From contig OZ252299.1 in assembly GCA_965250285.1 (NCBI GenBank), positions 1,184,001 through 1,248,000 of the forward strand: a DNA stretch of 64,000 bases, given 5' to 3'. Position numbers and translations under genes: made by a program. The stretch's first letter is position 1. Each line of letters opens with the position of its first letter. Source of the stretch: Myxococcota bacterium (GTDB lineage: Bacteria; Myxococcota_A; UBA9160; UBA4427). The notes beneath the pieces were generated by a model, which did no database searches, was not told where the DNA came from, and saw only the letters and a list, made by a program, of their open reading frames with translations. This document shows, one piece after another, positions 43,529 through 62,587 of the stretch.

Positions 43529-46753
<3,225 letters not shown>

Positions 46754-46823
46754 AGCCGCCGGCCAGGGTCGACGTTCGGGGCTGCTCGCATCGCCGAGCC
46801 ATGAGGCAGGAGCCCGAGGCGAG

Positions 46824-49376
46824 ATGGGGCAGGGAGAGCGCCGAGCGAGTCGCAGACGGGGGACCGACGGCCCGGGAGCCGCGTCCGGTCTCGTCGGCGC
46901 GATGGCGGCACTGCTGCGGCCGCTCGAGTTTGCCGGCCGCGACGAGGGCCGGGCCATCGAGCGTGTGAGCGGGCTCGAGGCCAGCCTCGTCGCCGCCTGT
47001 GACGGCATTCTCGCGCACCGGCTTCCGGCCGATTTTCGACGATCCGTCGAGGGTTTACGCGCAGGCTTCGAGGCGCCACTCGAAGTCGCCGAGCGCGCCG
47101 AGCGGGTGGCCGCGGCCCTCGAGTGGCTCGCTCCGTTTCGCGAACCCGACTGGCCCGAGGGGTTTCTCGCGCGGCCGCTCTCGGTCCTCCCCGGTGTCGG
47201 GCCGAAGCGCGCCGAGGCGCTCGGGCGCCGCGGCCTCGCGCGCATCGACGATCTGCTCTTTCACCTGCCGCATCGCTACGACGATCGCCGCGCGCTCTCG
47301 GGGGTGGGCGAGCTCGAGGTCGGCCGGCGGGCGACGTTCATCGCAGAAGTACTGGTCGCCGACTACACGTCGCGGCGATCGGGCGGCCGCTCCCGGCGGG
47401 TCTTCGAAGCCGTCGTCGGAGACGGCAGCGGCACCGTCAACCTCAAGTGGTTTCGGGCCAGCGACCTGCTGGCGAAGCAGGTCAAGAAGGGCCAGTGGCT
47501 CCTCGTGACCGGAGACGTCAAGCGCTACCGCTTCTCGAAGGAGCTCGTGCATCCCGAGGTCGAGCCGATCGATCCGCCGGAGGGGGCAGCGGAGACCGTC
47601 TCGAACGAATCGCGGGCCGAGCCCGAAGCGAACCCGAACGGCACGCCGCCGACCCACCCGACCGATGGCACATCGGATCCGGCCGCTGCGGATGCGCTGC
47701 GCGCGATCGTGCCCGACTACCCGGTGCCCGACGGCGTGAACGGTCGCACCCTGCGCCGGCTCGTCGCGCAGTCGGTCGAAGAGTATGCCGACCTCGTCGA
47801 AGGGCACCTGCCGCCCGAGACCGCCGAGAAGCTGGGTCTGCCTTCGGCCGCCGACGCGCTCGTGCAGGTGCATCATCCCGACCCCGAAGCGCGCGTCGAC
47901 GACTACCGAGAGCGCGTGTCGCCGGCGCACACGCGTCTGGTGCTCGAAGAGCTCTATCTGCTCGAACTCGGTCTGGCGCTGCGACGGGGCGATCAGGCGG
48001 CGTTGCCCGGGATCGCGATGGCGCGCTCGGCGGCGGGTGAACGCGCTTCGGCCGCGTCGCTGCCGTTCGCATTGACGGGCGCCCAGGCGCGGGTCGTCGA
48101 AGAGATCCAGAGCGATCTCGCTCGGCCCTCGCCGATGAACCGATTGGTGCAGGGGGACGTGGGCAGCGGCAAGACGGCGGTTGCGCTGCTCGCCGCGGCC
48201 GCGGTGGCGCGTGCCGGACACCAGGCCGCGCTCATGGCGCCGACCGAGCTGCTCGCCGAGCAGCATGCCCGTACGATTCGCGGCCTCGTCGAGTCGGGGG
48301 GCGAAGGGCTGGGGCAGCTCCAGGTGGCCCGGCTCACGGCGTCGATGCCGAAGCCCGTGGCCGACACGGTGCGGGCGCGGCTGGCCGCCGGCGACGTCGA
48401 CCTCGTGATCGGCACCCACGCGCTCGTGCAGGAGGGCGTCGCGTTTCGCTCGCTGGGCCTCGCCGTGATCGACGAGCAGCATCGCTTCGGCGTGCGCCAG
48501 CGGGCCGCGCTCGCTCAGTCGAATGCCGACGGCCGGCATCCCCACGCGCTCGTCATGACGGCGACGCCGATCCCGCGCACCCTGGCGCTCACGCTCTACG
48601 GCGATCTCGACGTGTCGGTGATCGACGAGCTGCCGCCCGGACGCACACCCGTCGAGACGCTGCTGTTGCGGGAGGGCGAAGGGCGGCGGCTCACCGACAT
48701 GGTCCGCGCGACCGTGGATCGCGGCGAGCAGGTGTACGTCGTCTACCCGCTGGTCGAGGAGAGTGAGAAGACCGACCTGCGGTCGGCGATCGAGAGTGCG
48801 CACCGTATCCAGGCGGCCTTTCGCGACGTGAAGGTCGATCTGGTGCACGGTCGCCTCGACGCCGGGGCCCGGGCCGAGGCGATGGAGCGCTTCATTCGCG
48901 GCGAGACCCGCATCCTCGTCTCGACCACCGTGATCGAGGTCGGCGTCGACGTGCCCGCAGCCACGCTCATGGTCATCGAGCACGCCGAGCGGTTCGGGCT
49001 CGCGCAGCTGCATCAGCTGCGGGGACGGGTCGGCCGCGGCGACAAGCCGGGGCGCTGTGTGCTCGTGGCGCGGTCGAGCAGCGAGAAGAGCGAGGCGCGA
49101 TTTCGGGCCATGCTCGACACGCACAGTGGGTTCGAGATTGCGGATGCCGACCTGCGGCTACGCGGTCCGGGCGAGTTCCTCGGAACCCGCCAGAGCGGAC
49201 ATCTGCCGGATCTGCGCATCGCCGATCTCGTGCGCGACGCCGACCACGTCGCGACGGCGCGCCAGGCCGCGTGGGACACGGTCGCGCGCGACCCCGGCCT
49301 CGCCGAGCACGAGCGCGTGCGTCGCGCGGTGCTCGCGCGCTGGGGCGATCGCCTCGCGCTCGTGGGGGTCGGGTAG
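46824..49376 (+). CDS. recG: ATP-dependent DNA helicase RecG
   Basis: QGDVGSGKT, DEQHRFGV, MTATPIPRT, QLRGRVGR, RGPGEFLGTRQSG; alternative start 46902. Confidence 0.95.
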   Translation: MGQGERRASRRRGTDGPGAASGLVGAMAALLRPLEFAGRDEGRAIERVSGLEASLVAACDGILAHRLPADFRRSVEGLRAGFEAPLEVAERAERVAAALEWLAPFREPDWPEGFLARPLSVLPGVGPKRAEALGRRGLARIDDLLFHLPHRYDDRRALSGVGELEVGRRATFIAEVLVADYTSRRSGGRSRRVFEAVVGDGSGTVNLKWFRASDLLAKQVKKGQWLLVTGDVKRYRFSKELVHPEVEPIDPPEGAAETVSNESRAEPEANPNGTPPTHPTDGTSDPAAADALRAIVPDYPVPDGVNGRTLRRLVAQSVEEYADLVEGHLPPETAEKLGLPSAADALVQVHHPDPEARVDDYRERVSPAHTRLVLEELYLLELGLALRRGDQAALPGIAMARSAAGERASAASLPFALTGAQARVVEEIQSDLARPSPMNRLVQGDVGSGKTAVALLAAAAVARAGHQAALMAPTELLAEQHARTIRGLVESGGEGLGQLQVARLTASMPKPVADTVRARLAAGDVDLVIGTHALVQEGVAFRSLGLAVIDEQHRFGVRQRAALAQSNADGRHPHALVMTATPIPRTLALTLYGDLDVSVIDELPPGRTPVETLLLREGEGRRLTDMVRATVDRGEQVYVVYPLVEESEKTDLRSAIESAHRIQAAFRDVKVDLVHGRLDAGARAEAMERFIRGETRILVSTTVIEVGVDVPAATLMVIEHAERFGLAQLHQLRGRVGRGDKPGRCVLVARSSSEKSEARFRAMLDTHSGFEIADADLRLRGPGEFLGTRQSGHLPDLRIADLVRDADHVATARQAAWDTVARDPGLAEHERVRRAVLARWGDRLALVGVG

Positions 49377-49617: not shown

Positions 49618-49777
49618 CGCTGCGTTTCTGCGCGGTGCCCAGAGCGAGCGGGCCTCGACCCCGGACACGGACGATCTGCCCACGGACCCGAGCCTTCGGG
49701 ACGTTCAGGCACGACGTGCGATTCGAGATCGAGTGAGATGAGACCGACGACCCGGGAACGTCGCACGGTGTGACGAT

Positions 49778-49835
49778 CCCCGACCGAAGCCCCCTCCTGC
49801 CGCAGCCGGCTGGAGGGGGCTTCGGCGTTTCGGGG
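49778..49835 (+). terminator. Attenuator terminator-like hairpin upstream of leuA
   Basis: CCGAAGCCCCCTCC...GGAGGGGGCTTCGG followed by CGTTTC. Confidence 0.65.
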
Positions 49836-49928
49836 CGGGATCGACCGCTGCGAGGTGCCGGGCTGGCCGGCCGGAGCGGCGCGAGGAGGGCGAACGAGAA
49901 CGCAGCACGAACGAGACAGGAGCAACCG

Positions 49929-51644
49929 ATGAAGACCGAGCCTCGCATGGACGCGCGCCGCTACGCCGCGGCCCCCGTCCTCGACCGAAGCGACCGACGC
50001 TGGCCGGGTCGCACACTGACGCGGCCGCCCAGGTGGTGCAGCGTCGATCTGCGCGACGGCAACCAGGCCCTCGCCCTGCCGATGGGCCTCGACCGCAAGC
50101 ACCGATTCTTCGATCTGCTCGTCGGCCTCGGCCTGCGCGAGATCGAGGTCGGCTATCCGGCGGCCTCGCAGATCGAGTGGGATTTCGTGCGCGCGCTCGT
50201 CGAGGCCGATCGAGTGCCCGAGGACGTCCGGATGCAGGTGCTCACCGCGGCGCGCCCCGATCTGATCGATCGCACCTTGGATTCGGTCGAAGGGGCGCGC
50301 GAGGCGATCGTGCATCTCTACAACTCGACCTCGACGGTGCAGCGGCGGGTCGTGTTCGAGATGGGCCGCGCCGGCGTGAAGGCGCTCGCCGTGCGCGGCG
50401 CGGAGCAGATTCGTGCGCGCGCCGAGCGGATGCCGGGGACGCGCATCACGCTCGAGTACTCGCCCGAGTCGTACACCGGCACCGAGGACGACTTTGCGCT
50501 CGAGATCTGTGAGGCCGTGGCCGAAGTCTGGTCGCCCTCGGCCGAGCGGCCGATGATCGTCAATCTGCCAGCGACGGTCGAATCGACGATGCCGAACGTG
50601 TTCGCCGACCGCATCGAGTGGTTCGGCGATCACTTCTCGTGGCGCGACGCGGTGACGCTCTCGGTGCATCCGCACAACGATCGGGGCACGGCCGTCGCTG
50701 CGGCCGAAATGGCGCTGCTCGCCGGTGCCGATCGCGTCGAGGGCACGCTCTTCGGCAACGGCGAGCGCACGGGCAACGTCGACCTCGTGACGCTGGCGCT
50801 CAATCTCTACACCCAGGGCGTCGATCCCGGGGTCGACCTCTCCGACCTCGACCGCGTCGTGGCCGAGGTGGAGCACTGCAATCGCATGCCGGTGCCCGCG
50901 CGTCATCCCTACGCAGGTGAGCTCGTGTACACCGCCTTCAGCGGCTCGCACCAGGATGCGGTGAAGAAGGGCCTCGCGGCCCTCGCGCGCGAGACGAGCC
51001 CGACATGGGACGTGCCCTACCTGCCGATCGACCCGGCCGACGTCGGCCGCAGCTACGAAGAAGTGATTCGCGTCAATGCCCAGAGTGGCAAGGGCGGGAT
51101 CGCTTACCTGATGGAGCGCGACCACGGTCTCACGTTGCCGCGCTTCGTGCAGGTCGACTTCGCACGCCACGTGCAACGCATCGCCGATGCGAACGGCGAC
51201 GAGATCACGAGCCGAGTGCTCGGTGAGATCTTCGAACGCACGTACCTCGGCGAGGCGGCCCCGGTGCGGCTGCTCGAAGTCGAGACCTTCAGTCGGGTCG
51301 AGCCCGGTGAGGCGGCGTGCCGCATCGGTGCGTGGCTCGAGCTGCACGGGCACAAGTGCCGGGTCGAGGGGGAAGGGCGGGGGCCGATCGACGCGTGGAC
51401 CCACGCGCTCGATGCGGCCGGTGTGCCGTGCAGCGTGGTCGACTATCACGAGCAGGCGCTCGGAGCCGGCGCCGACGCCAGCGCGATCGCGTTCGTCTCG
51501 GTCGAGCGGGCCGCAGGCGGGCGCCATGTCGGCGTGGGTCGCGGCCCGGACATCGTGCGCGCCTCGCTCGAAGCGATCGTTCGGGCGCTGGCCGACGAGG
51601 TGCGCGGCATCGATCGACCGTCGGCCGGCGACGCGGGCGCGTGA
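49929..51644 (+). CDS. leuA: 2-isopropylmalate synthase (yeast/actinobacterial type)
   Basis: WCSVDLRDGNQAL, SVHPHNDRGT, AFSGSHQDA, IRVNAQSGKGG; AGGAG before ATG. Confidence 0.95.
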   Translation: MKTEPRMDARRYAAAPVLDRSDRRWPGRTLTRPPRWCSVDLRDGNQALALPMGLDRKHRFFDLLVGLGLREIEVGYPAASQIEWDFVRALVEADRVPEDVRMQVLTAARPDLIDRTLDSVEGAREAIVHLYNSTSTVQRRVVFEMGRAGVKALAVRGAEQIRARAERMPGTRITLEYSPESYTGTEDDFALEICEAVAEVWSPSAERPMIVNLPATVESTMPNVFADRIEWFGDHFSWRDAVTLSVHPHNDRGTAVAAAEMALLAGADRVEGTLFGNGERTGNVDLVTLALNLYTQGVDPGVDLSDLDRVVAEVEHCNRMPVPARHPYAGELVYTAFSGSHQDAVKKGLAALARETSPTWDVPYLPIDPADVGRSYEEVIRVNAQSGKGGIAYLMERDHGLTLPRFVQVDFARHVQRIADANGDEITSRVLGEIFERTYLGEAAPVRLLEVETFSRVEPGEAACRIGAWLELHGHKCRVEGEGRGPIDAWTHALDAAGVPCSVVDYHEQALGAGADASAIAFVSVERAAGGRHVGVGRGPDIVRASLEAIVRALADEVRGIDRPSAGDAGA

Positions 51645-51948
51645 GCGAACGGGACGCCCGAGCCGGGTTGGGGGGCCGGCTCGGGCGACCTGCTGCGCCC
51701 GGGGCGTTGGGCCGGGCGCTCGCGTTCCGGTGCAGTTCGAGGGAACCCCACGGTGCCCGGCTCGGTCCAACGTCTGGGCGGATCGCGCGCGCGAGGGTGC
51801 GCCGGCCGCCCGGATGCCCGCCTACACGGGCTGTGCGAAAGTCGGGGGCCATTCCTCGCCACTCCTGCTGCTCGGCCGCCGGTGGGCGGTACCGGGCCCG
51901 AATCAGGCCGGCACCGTGCCGGTATGGACGACCCGCCGGAAGAATTCG

Positions 51949-54792
51949 ATGCGCCCCCGACCGACCGCAAAGCTCCTGCTCGCGTGCCTGCCGATGCTCA
52001 TCGCCGGTGCCGCTGGTGCGGATCCCTGGGTGAACCCGGGTGGACCGACCGAGGCCATCTGCGACGTATCGCACGTGGCCGAAGATCAGTCCGGCCAGTC
52101 GGCGGTCGACTTCGTCTTCGACGGCGTGCCGTTCACCGCGGCCAACCTGACGAACGTCGACTTCAAGGGCGCCTCGCTGATCTGCATCCCCGAGACCAAC
52201 GGCTGGTCGTGCGACGGCCGCTGCGTCGACTTCTCGGCGGCCCTGCTCGACGGCGCCCAGTTCCAGCGGGCCGATGCGACGGGGGCGAGCTTCGTCGGCA
52301 GCGACGCCCCGAACGCCGCGTTCTCGGGTGCGACGCTCGTCGACGCTCAGTTTCTGGGGGCCAAGCTCCGCGGCACGAGCTGGGACGGCGCCAACGCGTC
52401 GGGTGCCCGCTTCGACCAGGCCGACCTCACGGATGCGCGCGCGCTCGAGGGCGACGCGACCGACTTCTCGGGGGCGAGTCTCCAGGGGGCCACGCTGCTG
52501 CGCATCGACTTCGGCGGGAGCAACACGACGCAGCGCGTCTCGTTCACCGGCGCCGACTTGAGCCGCAGTACGAGCGACTGCCGCTACACCGAAGTCAGCG
52601 GGTCGGACGGGACGACCACCGAGGTCAGTGACTGCCCCGACTTCAGCTTTGCCGACTTCACGGGCGCCGATCTGCGCAGCGCCGTATGGCGCGGGGCCGA
52701 CCTGGGTGGTGCCGACTTCAGCGGGGCCTCGACCCGGTTCGACAACGCCCGCTTCGACGACGTCGATCTGACCAGCGAAGGGAGTGCAGGCGCCGATTTC
52801 ACCGGCGCCGTGCTGACGAACATGGCCCTGCGCGAGGCCATCTTCATCGATCAGAGCGACTTCGACATGATGGTGCGCAGCGCGACATTCGCCGGCGCGA
52901 GCCTGGCCCGGGCCGATCTGTCGGACGGTCAGCTGTGCTTCCCGTTCACGTTCGACGAAGACGAAGAAGATCCGGCCGCAGACGATGCGGCGGACATGGA
53001 CGACGCCGATTCGGTCGCCGATGCCGACGAGCCCATCCGCTGCGATGAAGCGCCCTATACCGACGTCGTGTGTGTCGACTGGGTCGACACCGCAGGGGGC
53101 GGGGCCGCGTCGATCGCCGACCGCTCGCTGGCGCAGTCGACGCTCGTGGGCGTCTGGGCGCCCGGGATCGACTTCACGCAGTTCACGCTGAGCGGCGCCG
53201 ACCTGCGCCTGATCGAGATGCCCTGCGCGACCCTCGAGGGCGCCGACCTGACCGACACGTTGATCGACGGCGCGAACTTCGCCGGCGCCTCGTTCGTGCT
53301 CGCGGCCGGGGGGGGCGGCGCCGATCTGCCCGCCGATCTGAGTCGCGCGGCGGGCGCATGCATCTTTCCGCCGGCCGAAGGCGACACTCAGCCCGACCCG
53401 CTGTGCCCGCGCTTCGACGAGGCCCTGCTCGAAGGCGTGTCGTTCACGTCGGGCATCATCGACGGGGGCACCTTCGTGGGCGCCCAGCTCGCGGGCGCCG
53501 ACTTCTCGAGCCTGCGGAACCTGTGTCAGCAGCTGCCGGTCGACCCAGACCAGAACGAGGGGCTGACCACGCGGACGTTTTGCAACGACTACACCGGCGC
53601 CGATCTTGGTCCCGATTCATCGGGCACCCCCGCGCGGTTCACCGGCGCTTCGATGGTCGGGCCGATCTTCGATTCGGCGACGGCCGATCAGCTCGTGCTG
53701 AACGAGATGCAGACCGACTGCATCGCCGGGCAGCTCCCCGGTGACGAAGAGGGCACCGTCGTCAGTCACGTCTTCTGCGCGAGCTTCTTCGACACGACGA
53801 TCACGCGGGCCGACTTCAGCGATGCTTCGCTCTTCCAGGCGCGCTTCGGCTGCCTCGACGAGAGCGGCGACGGGCCGCCCGTGTGGGCGTGCAGCGACGT
53901 GCGCGGCAGTGTCTTCGAGCGCGCCGAGCTCTCGGGCTCGCAGTGGGTCGGACCGGTCGACCTGACGAACTTCGATGCGGGCACACCCACCGACCTGGCG
54001 AACGCCCGCCTCGACCAGGCACTCATCACGTGCCAGGGCACGACCTACACCATGACCGTCGACGATGAGGACGTCGTGATGGCCGAAGCCCGTTGCCCGC
54101 AGTTCGCCGGCGCGGTCATGACGCCGGGCCTCGACCTCTCGGATGCGAGCGTGCTCGGCATCGATTGGTCGAACCAGGATCTGACAGGGGCCGATCTCTC
54201 CGGCGCGACGCTCGGCTGCTTCGTCTACACCTACGAAGACGCCGCCGGCGAGTCGCAGTCCCTCGACCCGATCTGCACCGAGCTCGCTGGTGCGACGCTC
54301 GTCGACGTCGACCTCACAGACGTCGAGATCGACGCCGACATCTCGCTTGCGGGGCTCGCGCTCTCGGGCGCCGATCTCACGCGCGCCGATCTGCGCGGGA
54401 TCGACCTATCGGGCGCCGATCTGAGCGGCAGCAACCTCGAGGATGCGCTGATGGACGCGGATACCCGGTTCAATGCCGGCTACGAGCCCGATCCCGATGC
54501 CAGCGCCGAGCAGAAGAAAGAAGACTGTACCCTCGAGGCGGGCGAGATCGCGACCGACGTTCGCGGTGCCCACCTGGGTGGCGTGAACTTCACGCCGGTC
54601 GTCGACTTCGGCGGCGAGTGCATCCTGTACGACGTGTACACGACGTACACGGCACAGACGCAGGGCCTCACCGAGACCGAGCGGCGTGGGATGACGCTGG
54701 TGCCCGAGCCGGGCGCGCTCGTCTCTCAGCTGGCCGCGCTGCTGACCCTCGGGCTCATCGCTCGCCGCGGCCACGTGAGCCGCCGAGGCTGA
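51949..54792 (+). CDS. Secreted pentapeptide-repeat protein with PEP-CTERM-like sorting signal (947 aa)
   Basis: Signal peptide ending AGA, many A(D/N)(L/F)xx repeats, C-terminal VPEP + TM + RR. Confidence 0.85.
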   Translation: MRPRPTAKLLLACLPMLIAGAAGADPWVNPGGPTEAICDVSHVAEDQSGQSAVDFVFDGVPFTAANLTNVDFKGASLICIPETNGWSCDGRCVDFSAALLDGAQFQRADATGASFVGSDAPNAAFSGATLVDAQFLGAKLRGTSWDGANASGARFDQADLTDARALEGDATDFSGASLQGATLLRIDFGGSNTTQRVSFTGADLSRSTSDCRYTEVSGSDGTTTEVSDCPDFSFADFTGADLRSAVWRGADLGGADFSGASTRFDNARFDDVDLTSEGSAGADFTGAVLTNMALREAIFIDQSDFDMMVRSATFAGASLARADLSDGQLCFPFTFDEDEEDPAADDAADMDDADSVADADEPIRCDEAPYTDVVCVDWVDTAGGGAASIADRSLAQSTLVGVWAPGIDFTQFTLSGADLRLIEMPCATLEGADLTDTLIDGANFAGASFVLAAGGGGADLPADLSRAAGACIFPPAEGDTQPDPLCPRFDEALLEGVSFTSGIIDGGTFVGAQLAGADFSSLRNLCQQLPVDPDQNEGLTTRTFCNDYTGADLGPDSSGTPARFTGASMVGPIFDSATADQLVLNEMQTDCIAGQLPGDEEGTVVSHVFCASFFDTTITRADFSDASLFQARFGCLDESGDGPPVWACSDVRGSVFERAELSGSQWVGPVDLTNFDAGTPTDLANARLDQALITCQGTTYTMTVDDEDVVMAEARCPQFAGAVMTPGLDLSDASVLGIDWSNQDLTGADLSGATLGCFVYTYEDAAGESQSLDPICTELAGATLVDVDLTDVEIDADISLAGLALSGADLTRADLRGIDLSGADLSGSNLEDALMDADTRFNAGYEPDPDASAEQKKEDCTLEAGEIATDVRGAHLGGVNFTPVVDFGGECILYDVYTTYTAQTQGLTETERRGMTLVPEPGALVSQLAALLTLGLIARRGHVSRRG

Positions 54793-54846: not shown

Positions 54847-56400
54847 TCAGCCGAGCACCATCTCGATGAGGCGCGGCCCCTTGCTCTGCATCGCGCTGGG
54901 CAGCGCCTTGGCGAGCTCCTCGACGGTTTCGACTCGCTCGGCATCGACGCCGAAGCCCCGCGCGAGGCTGACCCAGTCGAGAGCCGGCGGGCCGAGTTCG
55001 GTGAGCGCCCGAGCCTGTGGCCCGGGCTCGATCACACCCGAGCGGCCGAGCTCGACCTGCAGGATGCGATAGCTGCGATTCGAGCAGAGCAGCGTGAGCA
55101 CGTCGAGGCCCTCCCGGGCCTGTGTCCAGAGCGATTGCACGGTGTAGAGCCCGCTTCCATCTGCCTGGAAGTCGATCACCTTGCGATCGGGGCAGGCGAT
55201 GGCGGCGCCCGTCGCGCACGGCGGGCCCTGGCCGATCGCGCCGCCGGTCAGCGACATCACCGTGTGTCTGGGCACGTCCCGCTTGTGCAGGTAGAAGGGG
55301 AGGCTGCTCGTCGCCGCTTCTTCGACCACGATCGCATCGCTCGGCAGATGGCGCGCCAGGAGCCCCCCCACCGCCGCGACGTCGAGGGCGCCGCTCTCGG
55401 CAACGGGCACCATCGGCGGGGTCGGCAGGGCTTCGCCGCCCGGACCCATCGCGTCGGCGAGCGCCTCGAGCGCCTCGCCCGCCGCCTCTTCGGGCTCGGC
55501 GAGGCTCACGAGCCGGTCGGCTTCGACGATCTCGCTTCGCCCGCCGCGGTACCCGAAGAACGCCACCGGATCGCGTGTGCCCGCCAGCACCACGATCGGC
55601 GCCGGCGCGAGCGCTTCGGTGGCCTGCTCGGGGAAGTAGGGCAGGCGATCGAATGCGGGCAGGGCGCCACCGCGCTCCCAACGCGCAGGGAACGTCTCGA
55701 CCATCACGCGCACGCCATGCGCCGTGAGGCGCTCGGCTGCGACCAGGCCGGTCTCGTCGAGTGCCCGACCACCGAGGAGCAGCGCGGGCTCGCCCTTCGA
55801 CTTGGCCTCGCGCAGCCGCTCGGCCACCCGCTCGACGCGGGTCGATGTCACGCTGCGGGGCGGCCGAATGCCGCCGGCCGGCAGATGAGCAGGCCCGGAC
55901 GACTCTTCCCACTGATGATCGACGGGCACGATGAGGCTGGCCGGACCGCGCTCGCCCGACTGCGACGCGACGATCGCGTCGAGCGTTTGCTGCGGGAGCT
56001 CGACGGCCGACTCACTCGTACCGACCCAGGTCGAGACCGGAACGGCGAGCGACGTGATGTCGCTGGTCAGGGGCGCATCGGCGGCCAGATGCCAGCTCGC
56101 CTGATCACCGATGACGTTGAGCACCGGGCTGCGGGCGCGCCGCGCATTGTGGAGGTTCGCGATGCCATTGGCGAAGCCCGGCCCGAGATGCAGGATCGTC
56201 ATCGCGGGGCGGCCCGTCATGCGTGCGTAGCCGTCTGCGGCGCCGGTGCACACGCCTTCGAAGAGGCCGAGGACGGCGCGCATCCCGGGCACGTCGTCGA
56301 GCGCGGCCACGAGGGGCATCTCGGTCGTGCCCGGGTTTGCGAAGCACACATCGACCCCGCAGCTGAGGGCGGTCTTCACCAGACACTCGGCGCCGTTCAT
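54847..56400 (-). CDS. Thiamine-diphosphate enzyme, acetolactate synthase large subunit-like
   Basis: FANPGTTEM, EGVCTGAADGYAR, ADGSGLY...SN TPP motif. Confidence 0.88.
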   Translation of the reverse strand: MNGAECLVKTALSCGVDVCFANPGTTEMPLVAALDDVPGMRAVLGLFEGVCTGAADGYARMTGRPAMTILHLGPGFANGIANLHNARRARSPVLNVIGDQASWHLAADAPLTSDITSLAVPVSTWVGTSESAVELPQQTLDAIVASQSGERGPASLIVPVDHQWEESSGPAHLPAGGIRPPRSVTSTRVERVAERLREAKSKGEPALLLGGRALDETGLVAAERLTAHGVRVMVETFPARWERGGALPAFDRLPYFPEQATEALAPAPIVVLAGTRDPVAFFGYRGGRSEIVEADRLVSLAEPEEAAGEALEALADAMGPGGEALPTPPMVPVAESGALDVAAVGGLLARHLPSDAIVVEEAATSSLPFYLHKRDVPRHTVMSLTGGAIGQGPPCATGAAIACPDRKVIDFQADGSGLYTVQSLWTQAREGLDVLTLLCSNRSYRILQVELGRSGVIEPGPQARALTELGPPALDWVSLARGFGVDAERVETVEELAKALPSAMQSKGPRLIEMVLG

Positions 56401-58550: not shown

Positions 58551-59828
58551 ATGAAGGAAGACGAACGACACGAGGACTGGCGCGGGGACCCGGGCGCGAA
58601 GCCCGTCGCCGACGAGCGACCGAAGCCGCGCCACGACTTTCACAAGCTGAACCGGCTGCCCCCCTACATCCTGGCCGAGGTCACCGACCTGACGCGCGCC
58701 GGTCGCCGAGCGGGGGAAGACATCATCGATCTCGGTATGGGCAACCCCGACATGCCGACGCCCGACCACGTGGTCGAGAAGATCTGTGAGGCGGCACGCG
58801 ATCCGCGCAATCACCGCTACTCGTCGAGTCCAGGCATTCCGAACCTGCGCGCAGCGATCACCGAGTGGTACGCGCGCCGGCATCAGATCGAGCTCGATCC
58901 GAATCAAGAGGCCATCGCGGTGATCGGCGCGAAGGAGGGGCTCTCGCACTTCGTCCTGATGACGATCGGTCCCGGTGATGTGGTGCTCTGTCAGGATCCT
59001 GCCTATCCGATCCACCAGTACTCGGTGGCGATCGCAGGCGGTGATCTGCGCAAGGTGCCGCTCACCGACGACACCGATTTCATCGCGAATCTCGAGCAGG
59101 CCGTGGCCCGCACCTGGCCGAAGCCGAAGATGCTGATCCTGTCGTTTCCCGCGAACCCGACGACGACGATCGTCGACCGTGCGTTCTTCGAGCGCATCGT
59201 CGCGTTCGCGCGTGAGAACGACCTGATGGTGATCCATGACTTCGCCTACGCCGAGATCTGCTTCGACGGCTATCGCCCGCCGTCGATCCTCGAGGTGCCC
59301 GGGGCCCGCGACGTTGCGATCGAGTTCGGGTCGCTCTCGAAGAGTCACTCGATGGCGGGCTGGCGCGTCGGCTTCGCGGCGGGCAACCGGGACATGATCC
59401 ACGCGCTGCGCCGGATCAAGAGCTACCTCGACTACGGCATGCCCCAGGCGATTCAGATCGCCGCGATCACCGCGCTGCGGGGGCCACAGGACTGCGTCGA
59501 AGAGAACGTGCAGGAGTACAAGGAGCGCCGCGACGCGCTGATCGACGGGCTCGGCGCGCCGGGCGAGGGCAGCTGGAAGATCGAGAAGCCCCTGGCGACG
59601 ATGTTCGTGTGGGCCCGGCTCCCCGAGGCGTTCGAAGAGATGGGCAGCCTCGAGTTCTCGAAGCGCCTGCTCAAGGAGGCGAAGGTCGCCGTGTCGCCGG
59701 GCGTCGGCTTCGGTGACGCGGGCGAGGGCTACGTCCGCTTCGCTCTCGTCGAGAACAGGCACCGCATTCGTCAAGCCGTGCGCGGCATCCGTCGCTTCTT
59801 GCGCGAATACGGCGTGAGCGAGAATTGA
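58551..59828 (+). CDS. alaC: Class I/II PLP aminotransferase, AlaC-like
   Basis: [43 protein letters not shown]; upstream of hom. Confidence 0.8.
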
Positions 59829-59913
59829 GCCGGCCGGCCGTGCCAGCGCGCAGACCGCGCCCAGAGCCGGCATCGAACGGACGAGCACGCAAACGAGAGG
59901 AAAGAGGCGAGTC

Positions 59914-61236
59914 ATGAAGAATCGAGTCGGCGTCGGCCTGATCGGCTTGGGCACCATCGGTACGGGCGTCGCGAAGGTGTTGCGCGGCAACGCGGACGTG
60001 ATCCAGCAGCGGCTGGGCTTTGCCCTCGACCTCGTGCGAATCGCCGATCTCGATCTCGACACCGATCGCGGCATCGACCTCGACGGCATCCGCTTCGACG
60101 ACGATGCTGCGGGGCTGGTCGCCGACGCAGAGGTCGACATCGTCATCGAGCTCGTCGGGGGCTACGGCGCGGCCAAGAAGTTCACGCTCGACGCGATCTC
60201 GCACGGCAAGCACGTCGTCACGGCGAACAAGGCGCTGCTGGCCCTGCACGGCAAGGAGATCTTCGACGCCGCCGACAAGCAGGGCGTCGGCGTGCTCTTC
60301 GAGGCGGCCGTCGGGGGCGGCATCCCGATTCTGCGCTCGCTGCGCGAGGGGCTCGCAGCGAACCACATCGAGAGCGTCCACGGCATCCTGAACGGCACGA
60401 CCAACTACGTGCTGACCGAGATGGAAACGACGGGCGAGGATTTCGAGGTCGTGCTCAAGCGCGCGCAAGATCTCGGCTATGCCGAGGCCGACCCGACGTT
60501 CGATGTCGATGGCATCGACGCGGCGCACAAGCTCGCGATCCTGGTCGGCATGGCGTTCGGCGCCGAGGTGACGCACGAGGACATTCCCACCGAGGGCATT
60601 CGCGGCCTGTTGCCCGTCGACTTCGAGCAGGCCGCCGAGTTCGGCTATCGCATCAAGCTGCTCGGGATCGCGAAGGCGAGCGCGGGGCCCGGGGGTGACG
60701 CGCGGATCGAGGCGCGGGTGCATCCGACCATGGTGCCGAAGGCGAGCATGCTCGCCGGCGTCGACGCCGCGATGAACGCGGTCGAGGTGCACGGCGACGC
60801 GGTCGGGCCGACGCTCTACTACGGCGCGGGTGCGGGCGAGATGCCCACCGCGAGCGCGGTGGTCGCCGACTTGATGGAGATCGCGCGCGAGATCCAGCGC
60901 GGCAGCAACCGTCCGGTGGCGCCGCTGTCGTATCGCCCCGATCACCTCGCGCGAAAGCCGAGCGTGCCCCTCGATGAGATCGAGGGCCGCTACTACCTGC
61001 GATTCGAGTGCGTCGACCGGCCGGGCGTGCTGTCGCACATCACGGGCGAGCTCGGCGAGCACGGCGTGGGGATCGCCTCGGCGGTGCAGCACGGCAGCGG
61101 GGGCGGCCCGGTGCCGCTGATTCTGCTGACGCATCCGGCGGGCGAGGGCGCGCTGCGCGCGGCCGTCACGGCCATCGACGGGCTCGACGACGTGACCGCC
61201 CCCACGCGTGTGATCCGCATCGAAGAAGGGCTCTGA
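59914..61236 (+). CDS. hom: Homoserine dehydrogenase with ACT domain
   Basis: [41 protein letters not shown]. Confidence 0.96.
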
Positions 61237-61237
61237 G

Positions 61238-62587
61238 ATGAGCGAGAAGCCGCGGTACGCCGCCTGGTTCGAGAGCCTCGCCGATCCGAGCGAGCGCTAC
61301 GGCCTCGACGAGGTCGTCTATACCGATCGTGAAGGCGGACTGTTGCAGGTCGTCCACGACGTCGACGAGTTGAAGAAGACGTCGGCGGACGAGTGGCGGG
61401 CTCGCTTCGAGTCGCGTGCCCGCGGCGGGGAATGGCCGTATGGGTCGGGTGTCTGGGGCTTCAAGGAGATGGTCCTGCCCGAGATCGACGCCGACAACGT
61501 CGTGTCGATGTACGAAGGGCACTCGAATCTCTTCTGGGCCGAGCGCTACGGCAAGCAGATCGGCATCGAGGATCTGTGGATCAAGCTCTGCGGCAACTCG
61601 CATACGGGCTCGTTCAAGGATCTCGGCATGACGGTGCTCGTCAGCCAGGTGAAGGAGATGATCTCGAAGGGCGTCGGGATCCCGGCCGTGGGCTGCGCAT
61701 CGACCGGCGATACGAGCGCCGCGCTCTCGGCGTACGCCGCGGCCGCCGGTATTCCGGCCGTCGTGTTCCTGCCGCGCGGCAAGATCTCGCTGGCTCAGCT
61801 GATCCAGCCCGTCGCGAACGGCGCCATCGTCTTCGCCCTCGATACCGACTTCGATGGCTGCATGGAGATCGTCAAGCAGATCTCGGCGAAGGACGGCGTC
61901 TATCTCGCGAACTCGATGAACAGCCTGCGCATCGAAGGCCAGAAGACGGTGTCGATGGAGATCTGCGCGCAGTTCGACTGGGAGGTGCCCGACTGGATCG
62001 TGATCCCGGGTGGCAATCTCGGCAACGTGTCCGCCCTCGCGAAGGGGCTCGACCTCATGCTCGAGGTCGGGCTCATCGACAAGCGGCCGCGCATCTGCGT
62101 CGGCCAGGCTCAGGCGGCGAACCCGCTCTACCTCTCGTACCTGAAGGATTTCGAGGTGTTCGAGCCCATCGCGGCGCGGCCGACGGTGGCCTCGGCGATC
62201 CAGATCGGCAACCCGGTCTCGCGAGACAAGGCGATTTCGGCGTTGAAGCGCTACGACGGCGTCGTCGAGGAGGCGACCGAGGCCGAGATCATGGAGGCCT
62301 GTGCTGCGGCCGACCGGACCGGGCTCTTCAACTGTCCGCACACGGGCGTGGCGCTCGTCGCACTGAACAAGCTCAAGCAGCGCGGCCTCATACGGTCGAG
62401 CGACCGCGTCGTCGTGGTCTCGACGGCGCACGGTCTGAAGTTCACCGAGTTCAAGCTCCGCTATCACCAGATGGAGACCGAAGGGGTCGTGCCCGAGCTG
62501 CCCAACCCGCCGATCGAGCTCGATGCTCGATACGACACGGTGCGCGACCGGCTGCTCGCCGAGATCGACACCCGCTTCGGCGCCTGA
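61238..62587 (+). CDS. thrC: Threonine synthase
   Basis: [34 protein letters not shown]. Confidence 0.93.

What the first reader, a model, noticed from the sequence alone, without database searches (positions are those of the whole stretch)
51949..54792. Surface-anchored pentapeptide beta-helix carrying repeated Cys-bracketed acidic loops
The repeat register is interrupted about nine times by inserts that open with Cys and close with C-x-x-hydrophobic before repeats resume. Examples: CRYTEVSGSDGTTTEVSDCPDF, CIFPPAEGDTQPDPLCPRF, CQQLPVDPDQNEGLTTRTFCNDY, CIAGQLPGDEEGTVVSHVFCASF, CLDESGDGPPVWACSDV, CFVYTYEDAAGESQSLDPICTEL, and a long Asp-rich loop (DEDEEDPAADDAADMDDADS). The loops are unrelated in sequence, acidic and nearly Lys-free. 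Well-studied pentapeptide proteins (Qnr, MfpA) are cytoplasmic gyrase-binding DNA mimics, whereas this one has a signal peptide and a VPEP-TM-RR exosortase-type tail. Inference: a rigid scaffold displaying disulfide-stapled variable loops for cation/mineral binding, adhesion, or decoying DNA-binding proteins.
Basis: partly seen in the sequence, partly recalled or inferred. Interest (0 to 1): 0.75.

Follow-up and report, generated by a model that had tools for sequence, protein, structure and literature searches.

The report
Pentapeptide rod with cysteine-stapled loops
This gene encodes a long, very acidic pentapeptide-repeat protein, predicted to be exported and anchored at the cell surface, whose repeat pattern is broken nine times by loops with a cysteine at each end that likely form disulfide staples; the design defines a small family in one group of Myxococcota-type bacteria, likely serves a structural or adhesive role, and is a natural counterpart of loop-bearing solenoids that protein engineers have built.

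Summary
Observation confirmed. Window 51949-54792 encodes a 947-aa pentapeptide-repeat protein with a signal peptide, a divergent VPEP-TM-Arg tail and nine Cys-bracketed inserts. Across 21 relatives, both Cys of a loop fall at the same repeat position (i+2): 98 of 186 pairs, against 0-14 for shifted phases. None of 214 other pentapeptide hits has three such pairs. The AlphaFold model is an Rfr beta-helix (HetL Z 24); five loops form hairpins with strands symmetric about the Cys pair. S-S distances could not be measured. The genome has six exosortase-family genes, DsbB and DsbA-like genes. A shared C-terminal cap defines a single-copy family found in 14 of 68 genomes of one family and 0 of 157 others in the class; length (about 500-1780 aa) and loop number vary widely. 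Corrections: the loops are conserved among orthologues, not hypervariable. Lys-poverty is general to this genome's PEP-tail proteins. No DxDxDG calcium motif is present. Best reading: a rigid, disulfide-stapled, finned surface rod with a structural or adhesive role in the envelope or matrix; that function is inferred. New variant of a known fold, not found in the papers searched.

The parts
51949..54792 (+). Whole gene, 947 aa (P0001): exported pentapeptide-repeat (Rfr) beta-helix, about 31 coils, net charge -107, single copy in the genome
   Evidence: frame uninterrupted in contigs of 3 DNA runs of one study, one of which may be the source
51949..52020 (+). Predicted Sec signal peptide, aa 1-24, ending A-G-A; Cys13 is not conserved, so a lipoprotein is unlikely
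   Evidence: sequence; A24 invariant, C13 in 2 of 5 orthologues; no signal-peptide predictor was available
52021..52083 (+). N-terminal cap with conserved C38; degenerate form of the His-rich N-cap of relatives (one His here)
52183..52224 (+). Loop 1, C79-C92, with internal C88 (likely paired with C38, by elimination)
52579..52635 (+). Loop 2, C211-C229, predicted beta-hairpin (strands 212-217 and 223-228)
52936..53073 (+). Loop 3, C330-C375, with internal C365 and an Asp-rich low-confidence stretch found only in this copy; C330 and C375 are lost together in P0006
53224..53226 (+). C426, a lone invariant Cys on the helix, likely partner of C365
   Evidence: kept in P0006 together with C365; pairing inferred
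53359..53406 (+). Loop 4, C471-C486, no hairpin in the model
53524..53583 (+). Loop 5, C526-C545, predicted hairpin (527-530, 541-544); V-D-P-x-x-N invariant in five orthologues; eight repeats after loop 4
53719..53778 (+). Loop 6, C591-C610, predicted hairpin (592-597, 604-609)
53851..53892 (+). Loop 7, C635-C648, five repeats after loop 6, so at the next corner
54031..54096 (+). Loop 8, C695-C716, long predicted hairpin (696-704, 707-715); eight repeats after loop 7
54217..54276 (+). Loop 9, C757-C776, predicted hairpin (761-763, 769-771); eight repeats after loop 8
54481..54696 (+). Family-defining C-terminal cap with invariant C860 and C891 (likely a disulfide)
54700..54789 (+). VPEP + hydrophobic helix + Arg cluster: divergent PEP-CTERM-like tail, with a Gln in the helix as in many relatives
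49770..51644 (+). leuA (2-isopropylmalate synthase), conserved upstream neighbour in 7 of the 14 carrier genomes; a marker of orthology, not of function
54847..56400 (-). TPP-dependent enzyme (PRK07586 type), convergent downstream neighbour in 4 carrier genomes

Best explanation
The protein is a pentapeptide-repeat beta-helix with nine Cys-bracketed inserts that is predicted to be exported, likely oxidised into about twelve disulfides, likely processed by an exosortase, and likely acts as a rigid, acidic, finned rod with a structural or adhesive role in the envelope or extracellular matrix. Shown: the repeats, the inserts, the conservation of the Cys, and the rule that both Cys of a loop occupy the same i+2 repeat position. 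Modelled: the Rfr fold and hairpins flanked symmetrically by the Cys pairs. Inferred: each disulfide closes the neck of an insertion at a helix corner, so the solenoid resumes in register and tolerates loops of about 4-45 residues. Loops 4-6 likely leave one corner and loops 7-9 the next, mostly two coils apart, which would line them up as fins along a rod of about 15 nm. Inferred by analogy with other PEP-CTERM cargo: the rod helps build or cross-link the surface or matrix layer, through self-association or binding to polysaccharide or protein partners, with divalent ions screening its charge.
For: Register rule: L/F at -7 and -12 from the opening Cys in 69% and 59% of 186 pairs, and at +3 and +8 from the closing Cys in 68% and 54%, other nearby offsets 23% or less. 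It holds in nine representatives (44 and 49 of 80; background 17%) and in 15 proteins picked later by the cap alone (73 and 77 of 115). 22 of 24 mature Cys are invariant in five orthologues, and the two exceptions are lost together. Mature Cys counts are even in 17 of 19 near-full-length members (my count). Model pLDDT 78 with symmetric hairpins; HetL Z 24.2, rmsd 2.3 over 223. DsbB and two DsbA-like genes. Six exosortase-family genes and 72 TIGR02595 tails over cut-off. All 15 cap-selected proteins end in a PEP tail. Length and loop number vary about three- to six-fold at one locus, which suits a structural spacer or display protein better than an enzyme. PEP-CTERM proteins are needed for floc formation in Zoogloea (10.1101/2023.06.07.544157, passages).
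Against: No coordinates, so no S-S distance was measured. In the model of relative P0009 the Cys loops are short coils, not hairpins, and its one long mid-body hairpin has no Cys, so 'fins' do not generalise. Successive loops are at the same corner in only 29-33 of 73 intervals and at the next corner in 28-30. This protein's own tail gives no TIGR02595 match; only 2 of 10 family tails pass the cut-off. PEP-CTERM cargo is normally Cys-poor, 0.4% (PMC1569441), so the analogy with floc proteins is loose. The gene is missing from 54 of 68 genomes of the family searched, so it is dispensable for the lineage. The neighbours are housekeeping genes and say nothing about function. Family members are kin, so the counts are not independent.
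Confidence: 0.5

Rival explanations
1. The stapled loops chelate Ca2+ or other cations, or template mineral or metal-oxide binding, and that is the main job; the rod spaces the sites regularly.
For: Net charge -107; among the two most acidic of 68 PEP-tail proteins in the genome, 17% D/E against a median of 12%; family loops 25% D/E against 15% overall; Asp runs in loop 3 and in P0168; a D-x-D-x-D-G in the loop-3 equivalent of 2 of 4 orthologues.
Against: No D-x-[DN]-x-[DN]-G in P0001, and the motif occurs in only 4 of 21 family proteins, whereas a 3128-aa ORF in the same genome is packed with such repeats. Loop acidity is not significant without loop 3, and that Asp-rich stretch is not conserved.
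Confidence: 0.2
2. The rod is a specific recognition protein (kin, host, prey or phage contact), with the loops as lineage-specific binding determinants.
For: Single copy per genome. Loops diverge faster than the scaffold in 3 of 6 groups tested (p 3e-5, 0.008, 0.006). Loop sets differ wholesale between genera at the same locus. Loops on QnrB1 are functional contacts (PMC8145042).
Against: Loops are nearly invariant within close clusters (1 of 68 loop columns variable among 15 proteins; 5 of 111 among 3) and not significantly faster in this protein's own group (p 0.11). Faster change is expected of any surface loop. No partner gene is conserved nearby.
Confidence: 0.15
3. It works like pectate-lyase or tailspike beta-helices: loops on two adjacent corners wall off a face into a groove that binds or cuts a polysaccharide.
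For: Loops use the same or the next corner. Lyases and tailspikes appear in the fold search, at lower Z (13.8-16.8, 6-12% identity). PEP-CTERM systems go with exopolysaccharide loci (PMC1569441).
Against: Those hits reflect a generic beta-helix and rank below true Rfr chains. By my parse, loops 4-6 and 7-9 are staggered along the axis, not facing each other. The profile comparison of two subgroups matched repeats but showed no shared catalytic-looking motif in the part displayed. Body length varies about threefold.
Confidence: 0.08
4. It is an extracellular DNA mimic that decoys nucleases, DNA-binding proteins or cationic peptides, as MfpA and Qnr mimic DNA for gyrase.
For: Same fold as MfpA and Qnr (Z 16-19) and strongly negative.
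Against: Scores are far below the Qnr and MfpA cut-offs (47 against 240; 51 against 360). Export removes it from gyrase. The C-terminus carries a cap and membrane tail, not the dimer helix described for Qnr (PMC8145042). Nine protruding loops would spoil a duplex-like surface (inference).
Confidence: 0.05

Closest known systems
Pentapeptide repeat (Rfr) superfamily, PF00805; closest solved structure HetL (3du1)
   Same: Right-handed quadrilateral beta-helix (Z 24.2, rmsd 2.3, 223 aligned); HetL also has loop insertions at a corner (PMC8145042 passage).
   Different: About three times as many coils, nine Cys-bracketed loops instead of two short ones, signal peptide and PEP tail; NF047416 score 112 against a cut-off of 260.
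Rfr23 (2O6W) and Rfr32 of Cyanothece
   Same: Rfr23 has a 24-residue insertion and a disulfide bracket; Rfr32 has a signal peptide and a capping disulfide (PMC8145042, section 25 and passages).
   Different: The Rfr23 bracket joins C39 and C42, three residues apart, occurs once, and its insertion is basic. Here the Cys flank whole acidic inserts and the device is repeated 3-18 times per protein. The original Rfr23 paper was not held.
Engineered beta1/SynRFR solenoids with designed loop or beta-hairpin extensions (PDB 4yfo, 5dqa, 5dn0, 5dns, 5di5; MacDonald et al. 2016)
   Same: Rfr scaffold carrying inserted loops; ranks 2-9 in the structural comparison (Z 19-24).
   Different: Synthetic and, judging by entry titles and lengths, single-loop variants. 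The paper was not held; I saw only its title in a reference list, so I cannot say where its loop is inserted or whether disulfides were used.
PEP-CTERM/exosortase cargo (TIGR02595, PF07589; PepA of Zoogloea)
   Same: Signal peptide, Pro-Glu-Pro + hydrophobic helix + Arg cluster, few basic residues, exosortases in the genome.
   Different: Tail below the TIGR02595 model; 2.7% Cys against 0.4% typical (PMC1569441 passage). The 14 PEP-tailed pentapeptide proteins outside the family have 0-11 Cys in 790-2100 aa.
Qnr/MfpA gyrase-protecting DNA mimics
   Same: Fold, negative charge, loops projecting from the coil (QnrB1).
   Different: Exported, much longer, no match near the cut-offs, different C-terminus.

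Membership tests
Pentapeptide repeat (Rfr) superfamily | At least eight tandem A-[DN]-L-x-x type repeats; Pfam PF00805 over cut-off | tested here: met
   160 bits against 20.2; about 124 repeats parsed
Pentapeptide repeat (Rfr) superfamily | Right-handed quadrilateral beta-helix | tested here: met
   Predicted model matches HetL at Z 24.2, rmsd 2.3 over 223 residues; rows mostly span residues 23-433
PEP-CTERM cargo | C-terminal PEP motif + transmembrane helix + basic cluster | tested here: met
   V918-P-E-P, helix 923-943, Arg cluster; 15 of 15 cap-selected relatives have a PEP-type tail
PEP-CTERM cargo | Match to TIGR02595 over its cut-off | tested here: not met
   No row for this tail, only weak hits to the tail ends of PEP-CTERM family models (best E 0.0035); the closest orthologue passes (19.4 against 16); 2 of 10 tails pass
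PEP-CTERM cargo | N-terminal signal peptide, no internal membrane helix | tested here: met
   Read from sequence and alignment; no dedicated predictor was run
PEP-CTERM cargo | Exosortase in the genome | tested here: met
   6 PF09721 matches over cut-off; 2 of 6 over TIGR02602, 6 of 6 over TIGR04178
PEP-CTERM cargo | Actual cleavage and surface delivery | not testable with these tools
   needs proteomics
Qnr/MfpA DNA mimics | NCBIfam Qnr or MfpA model over cut-off | tested here: not met
   47.3 against 240; 50.7 against 360
Qnr/MfpA DNA mimics | Cytoplasmic, dimer through a C-terminal helix | tested here: not met
   Signal peptide, Cys-bearing cap and membrane tail; oligomer state itself not tested
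HetL / Alr5209 equivalogs | NCBIfam model over cut-off | tested here: not met
   112.5 against 260; 105.2 against 125
Dx[DN]xDG calcium-binding repeat proteins | D-x-[DN]-x-[DN]-G motifs | tested here: not met
   0 in P0001; present in 4 of 21 family proteins
Disulfide-stapled insertion (claimed here) | S-S bonding between the two Cys of each loop | tested here: inconclusive
   Register rule, co-loss and symmetric hairpins fit; no coordinates or chemistry

The most novel reading that the evidence does not exclude
An undescribed family of natural display scaffolds. A bacterial lineage has turned the Rfr beta-helix into a surface rod of 7-30 nm that accepts arbitrary inserts through one rule, a disulfide staple at the i+2 corner. 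It gains, loses and swaps 3-18 loops at a single locus, and these loops carry lineage-specific binding functions (adhesion, recognition or ion/mineral capture). The rule would transfer directly to engineered multivalent solenoids.
Probability: 0.3. Interest if true: 0.72.

Novelty: new variant of a known kind. Interest (0 to 1): 0.5.

Why it matters
Most pentapeptide proteins have no known function and the solved ones are short, with at most a few loops (PMC8145042). This family shows a repeated natural way to graft long loops onto the fold without breaking its register, which protein designers have attempted with single-loop variants. It gives a concrete design rule that can be tested in a standard expression system. 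It also extends PEP-CTERM cargo, normally Cys-poor, to a Cys-rich rod, and gives a marker for a surface structure in a poorly studied Myxococcota-type lineage. It does not answer a long-standing question, and the biological role is inferred only.

Tried and rejected
Lipoprotein reading of Cys13: rejected, Cys present in 2 of 5 orthologues. Earlier start codons (992 or 1201 aa): rejected, orthologues start at the same Met. Canonical Ca-loop motif: absent. Repeated homologous loops within the protein: none beyond chance. Hypervariable loops: not seen in close clusters. Paralogues in the genome: none; the only other ORF flagged by my repeat pattern is an Asp-rich repeat protein, not a pentapeptide protein. 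Organism names through the search for related loci: two alignments had no searchable stretch and one single-protein scan found nothing; lineage rests on source names of relatives. VKOR not found in this 95%-complete genome; DsbB fills that role. No sigma-70-type promoter or terminator site in 51600-52000. Expression: no RNA holder listed, which is no evidence either way. ESM Atlas: only generic pentapeptide clusters at 0.89-0.91. The cap matched solved structures mainly over its repeat part. The profile comparison of two subgroups was dominated by repeat matching. Literature: searches for pentapeptide repeat + PEP-CTERM, + exosortase, and two five-term searches returned 0 papers; 'disulfide bracket' and 'loop excursion' returned only the 2021 review. 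Subscription papers are not covered; the Rfr23 and SynRFR papers were not held. No supplements were read. No complex prediction was run, as no partner is claimed. No earlier finding of this scan matched by sequence or words.
Full report
THE GENE. Window 51949-54792 (+) encodes 947 aa, between leuA and a convergent TPP enzyme. Four full-length orthologues at 44-48% identity start at the same Met. Contigs of three DNA runs from one study show no frame change; one may be the source of the assembly. Pfam finds only pentapeptide families. NCBIfam finds 18 families, none over cut-off. The genome is 6.25 Mb, 69% G+C, 95% complete. Named relatives are labelled Myxococcota, Myxococcales or Deltaproteobacteria by their sources; I have no direct name for this genome.

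THE OBSERVATION. The mature chain has 24 Cys. Eighteen bracket nine inserts; the others are C38, C88, C365, C426, C860 and C891. In five orthologues 22 of 24 are invariant, and the two exceptions, C330 and C375, are lost together in P0006, which keeps C365 and C426. That suggests the pairs 330-375 and 365-426. C860 and C891 are invariant in nine caps.

THE REGISTER RULE. I paired consecutive Cys with no repeat between them in 21 family proteins, without using the flanks: 186 pairs, holding 372 of 486 Cys; the rest are triple-Cys loops, cap Cys or singles, and a few pairs are mis-assigned by the simple rule. L/F lies 7 and 12 residues before the opening Cys (69%, 59%) and 3 and 8 after the closing Cys (68%, 54%); other offsets between the flanks and the Cys give 23% or less. 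Both Cys therefore sit at position i+2 of the repeat, and the helix resumes as if the loop replaced one corner residue. Both conditions hold in 98 of 186 pairs, against 0-14 for 12 shifted phases. In nine representatives the counts are 44 and 49 of 80, on a 17% background. Sixteen of 21 family proteins have three or more such pairs; 0 of 214 other pentapeptide hits do, though many of those have few Cys. Fifteen of 52 new proteins from a cap-only search carry the cap, and all 15 end in a PEP tail. They repeat the pattern: 73 and 77 of 115 pairs, other phases 20 or less. The 37 without the cap have at most one such pair. Several of the 15 are near-copies of earlier members, and all are kin, so these counts are not independent trials. 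Loop 3 is an exception: it opens at i+1.

STRUCTURE. The AlphaFold model from five sequences has pLDDT 78 and pTM 0.70. It aligns best to HetL (Z 24.2, rmsd 2.3, 223 residues), then to synthetic beta1 solenoids and their loop variants (Z 19-24), then Qnr, AlbG and MfpA. Loops 2, 5, 6 and 8 form hairpins whose strands are exactly symmetric about the two Cys, and loop 9 nearly so. Loops 1, 3, 4 and 7 show no such hairpin, and 335-361 is below pLDDT 50. No coordinates were returned, so disulfides are inferred. In a second model (P0009, pLDDT 81) the Cys loops are short coils and the long mid-body hairpin has no Cys: the staple generalises, the hairpin does not. A repeat parse gives about 124 repeats, or 31 coils; at 0.48 nm per coil (recalled) that is about 15 nm, and 7-30 nm across eight members parsed (approximate). 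Repeats between successive loops, modulo four, are 0 in 29-33, 1 in 28-30, 2 in 6-10 and 3 in 4-5 of 73 intervals. Here loops 4-5, 7-8 and 8-9 are eight repeats apart and 6-7 five; 5-6 parses as nine by script, but eight by the model's strand pattern and by the 40-residue spacing in P0004. Loops 4-6 thus likely share one corner and 7-9 the next.

EXPORT AND ANCHOR. The signal peptide is read from the sequence. The genome has six exosortase-family genes, 72 TIGR02595 tails over cut-off among 75 matches (150 of 156 candidates scored), DsbB and two DsbA-like genes. This tail itself is not matched by TIGR02595; the closest orthologue's is, and 2 of 10 family tails pass. It is a divergent PEP-CTERM-like tail, so exosortase processing is likely, not shown.

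FAMILY. A profile of the C-terminal cap finds one match in each of 14 of 225 genomes of the class: 14 of 68 in this family, 0 of 157 in the others. In a phylum sample it finds 6 of 401, none among 375 outside the family (only 14 candidates scored per genome). leuA lies directly upstream in 7 of the 14 carriers, and recG beyond it in 3 related loci by Pfam plus the window by recalled motifs; the TPP enzyme lies downstream in 4 (three loci are cut by contig ends). So this is a vertically inherited single-copy gene whose body ranges from about 500 to 1780 aa with 3-18 stapled loops. Mature Cys counts are even in 17 of 19 near-full-length members (my count, signal-region Cys excluded).

WHAT THE LOOPS ARE NOT. 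They are unrelated to each other but conserved by position: 42% identity against 48% for the scaffold among five orthologues. They change faster than the scaffold in 3 of 6 groups, not in this protein's group (p 0.11), and hardly at all within close clusters. Their acidity depends largely on a non-conserved stretch of loop 3. Low Lys is general among the genome's PEP-tail proteins, while overall acidity (top 2 of 68) and Cys content (top 3 of 68) are unusual. There is no DxDxDG motif.

MECHANISM. Shown: repeats, inserts, Cys conservation, register rule, family distribution. Modelled: fold and hairpins. Inferred: Sec export, Dsb oxidation, staples that let a solenoid carry long inserts, exosortase processing, and a structural or adhesive role in the envelope or matrix (0.5). 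Rivals: cation or mineral binding (0.2), specific recognition (0.15), glycan groove (0.08), DNA mimicry (0.05).

KNOWN WORK. PMC8145042 (passages and section 25 seen): corner loops in HetL and QnrB1, a single C39-C42 bracket beside a 24-residue basic insertion in Rfr23, a signal peptide and capping disulfide in Rfr32. PMC1569441 (passages): PEP-CTERM cargo has few basic residues and 0.4% Cys. 10.1101/2023.06.07.544157 (passages): PEP-CTERM proteins are needed for flocs in Zoogloea. PMC12775518 (passages and reference list): title of the SynRFR hairpin paper, which I could not read. Four searches for this combination returned nothing and two returned only the review; closed-access papers are not covered. 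PEP-tailed pentapeptide proteins as such are not rare: 14 among the non-family hits, all Cys-poor.

VERDICT. A real feature, a member of the Rfr superfamily, PEP-CTERM-like but failing the TIGR02595 test, and not a Qnr, MfpA or HetL. New variant of a known kind. Interest 0.5: a clean, testable structural rule in an apparently undescribed family, with function inferred only.

Noticed in passing
N-termini of family members, e.g. P0047, P0009, P0166; also a short loop-free PEP-tailed pentapeptide protein, L037:3539-4429: A His-rich first coil (H-x-G-x-D-H-S-x-H-D-H type) with His at or near the inward-facing repeat position, in 12 of 21 family proteins; a possible internal metal site capping the helix. 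Reduced to one His in P0001.
   Followed up: partly
P0022, P0046, P0130, P0139, P0163, P0224: A second, unrelated class of pentapeptide proteins with repeated, mutually similar Cys loops (C-P-x-x-L-P-x-x-W-x-C, 3-17 copies). Cys-free versions of the same insert seem to occur in other secreted pentapeptide proteins such as P0038.
   Followed up: partly
family tails, window 54700-54789: Many family tails carry a Gln in the membrane helix five to six residues after PEP (invariant in alignment A3) and score poorly with TIGR02595; possibly a subtype served by one of the six exosortases.
   Followed up: partly
G000:C1:3941443-3950829 (-), L046: 3128-aa open frame with what look like galactose-oxidase-type and cytochrome-c-peroxidase-type parts (recalled motifs, not scanned), more than 20 Asp-rich Cys-paired tandem repeats, and a non-PEP C-terminal sorting-like tail.
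   Followed up: no
L044:10309-15999 (-) and L045:1-6306 (+): In two genomes of genus g7 the gene follows, and abuts, a very large acidic ORF (over 1890 aa) with no Pfam match at 1e-5; a possible partner adhesin.
   Followed up: partly
L038:7557-9493 (-): The family gene in G138 is split over two frames near its C-terminus, while a similar protein (P0263) is intact; assembly error or recent frameshift.
   Followed up: no
P0038, P0057, P0104, P0138, P0145, P0154, P0171, P0178, P0183, P0192, P0197, P0203, P0215, P0221: Fourteen long PEP-tailed pentapeptide proteins without Cys loops; the pentapeptide + PEP-CTERM combination returned no paper in two searches.
   Followed up: partly
window 43529-49376 and 58551-62587: Housekeeping context by recalled motifs, not scanned: carbamoyl-phosphate synthase large subunit, recG, an aminotransferase, homoserine dehydrogenase, threonine synthase.
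   Followed up: no
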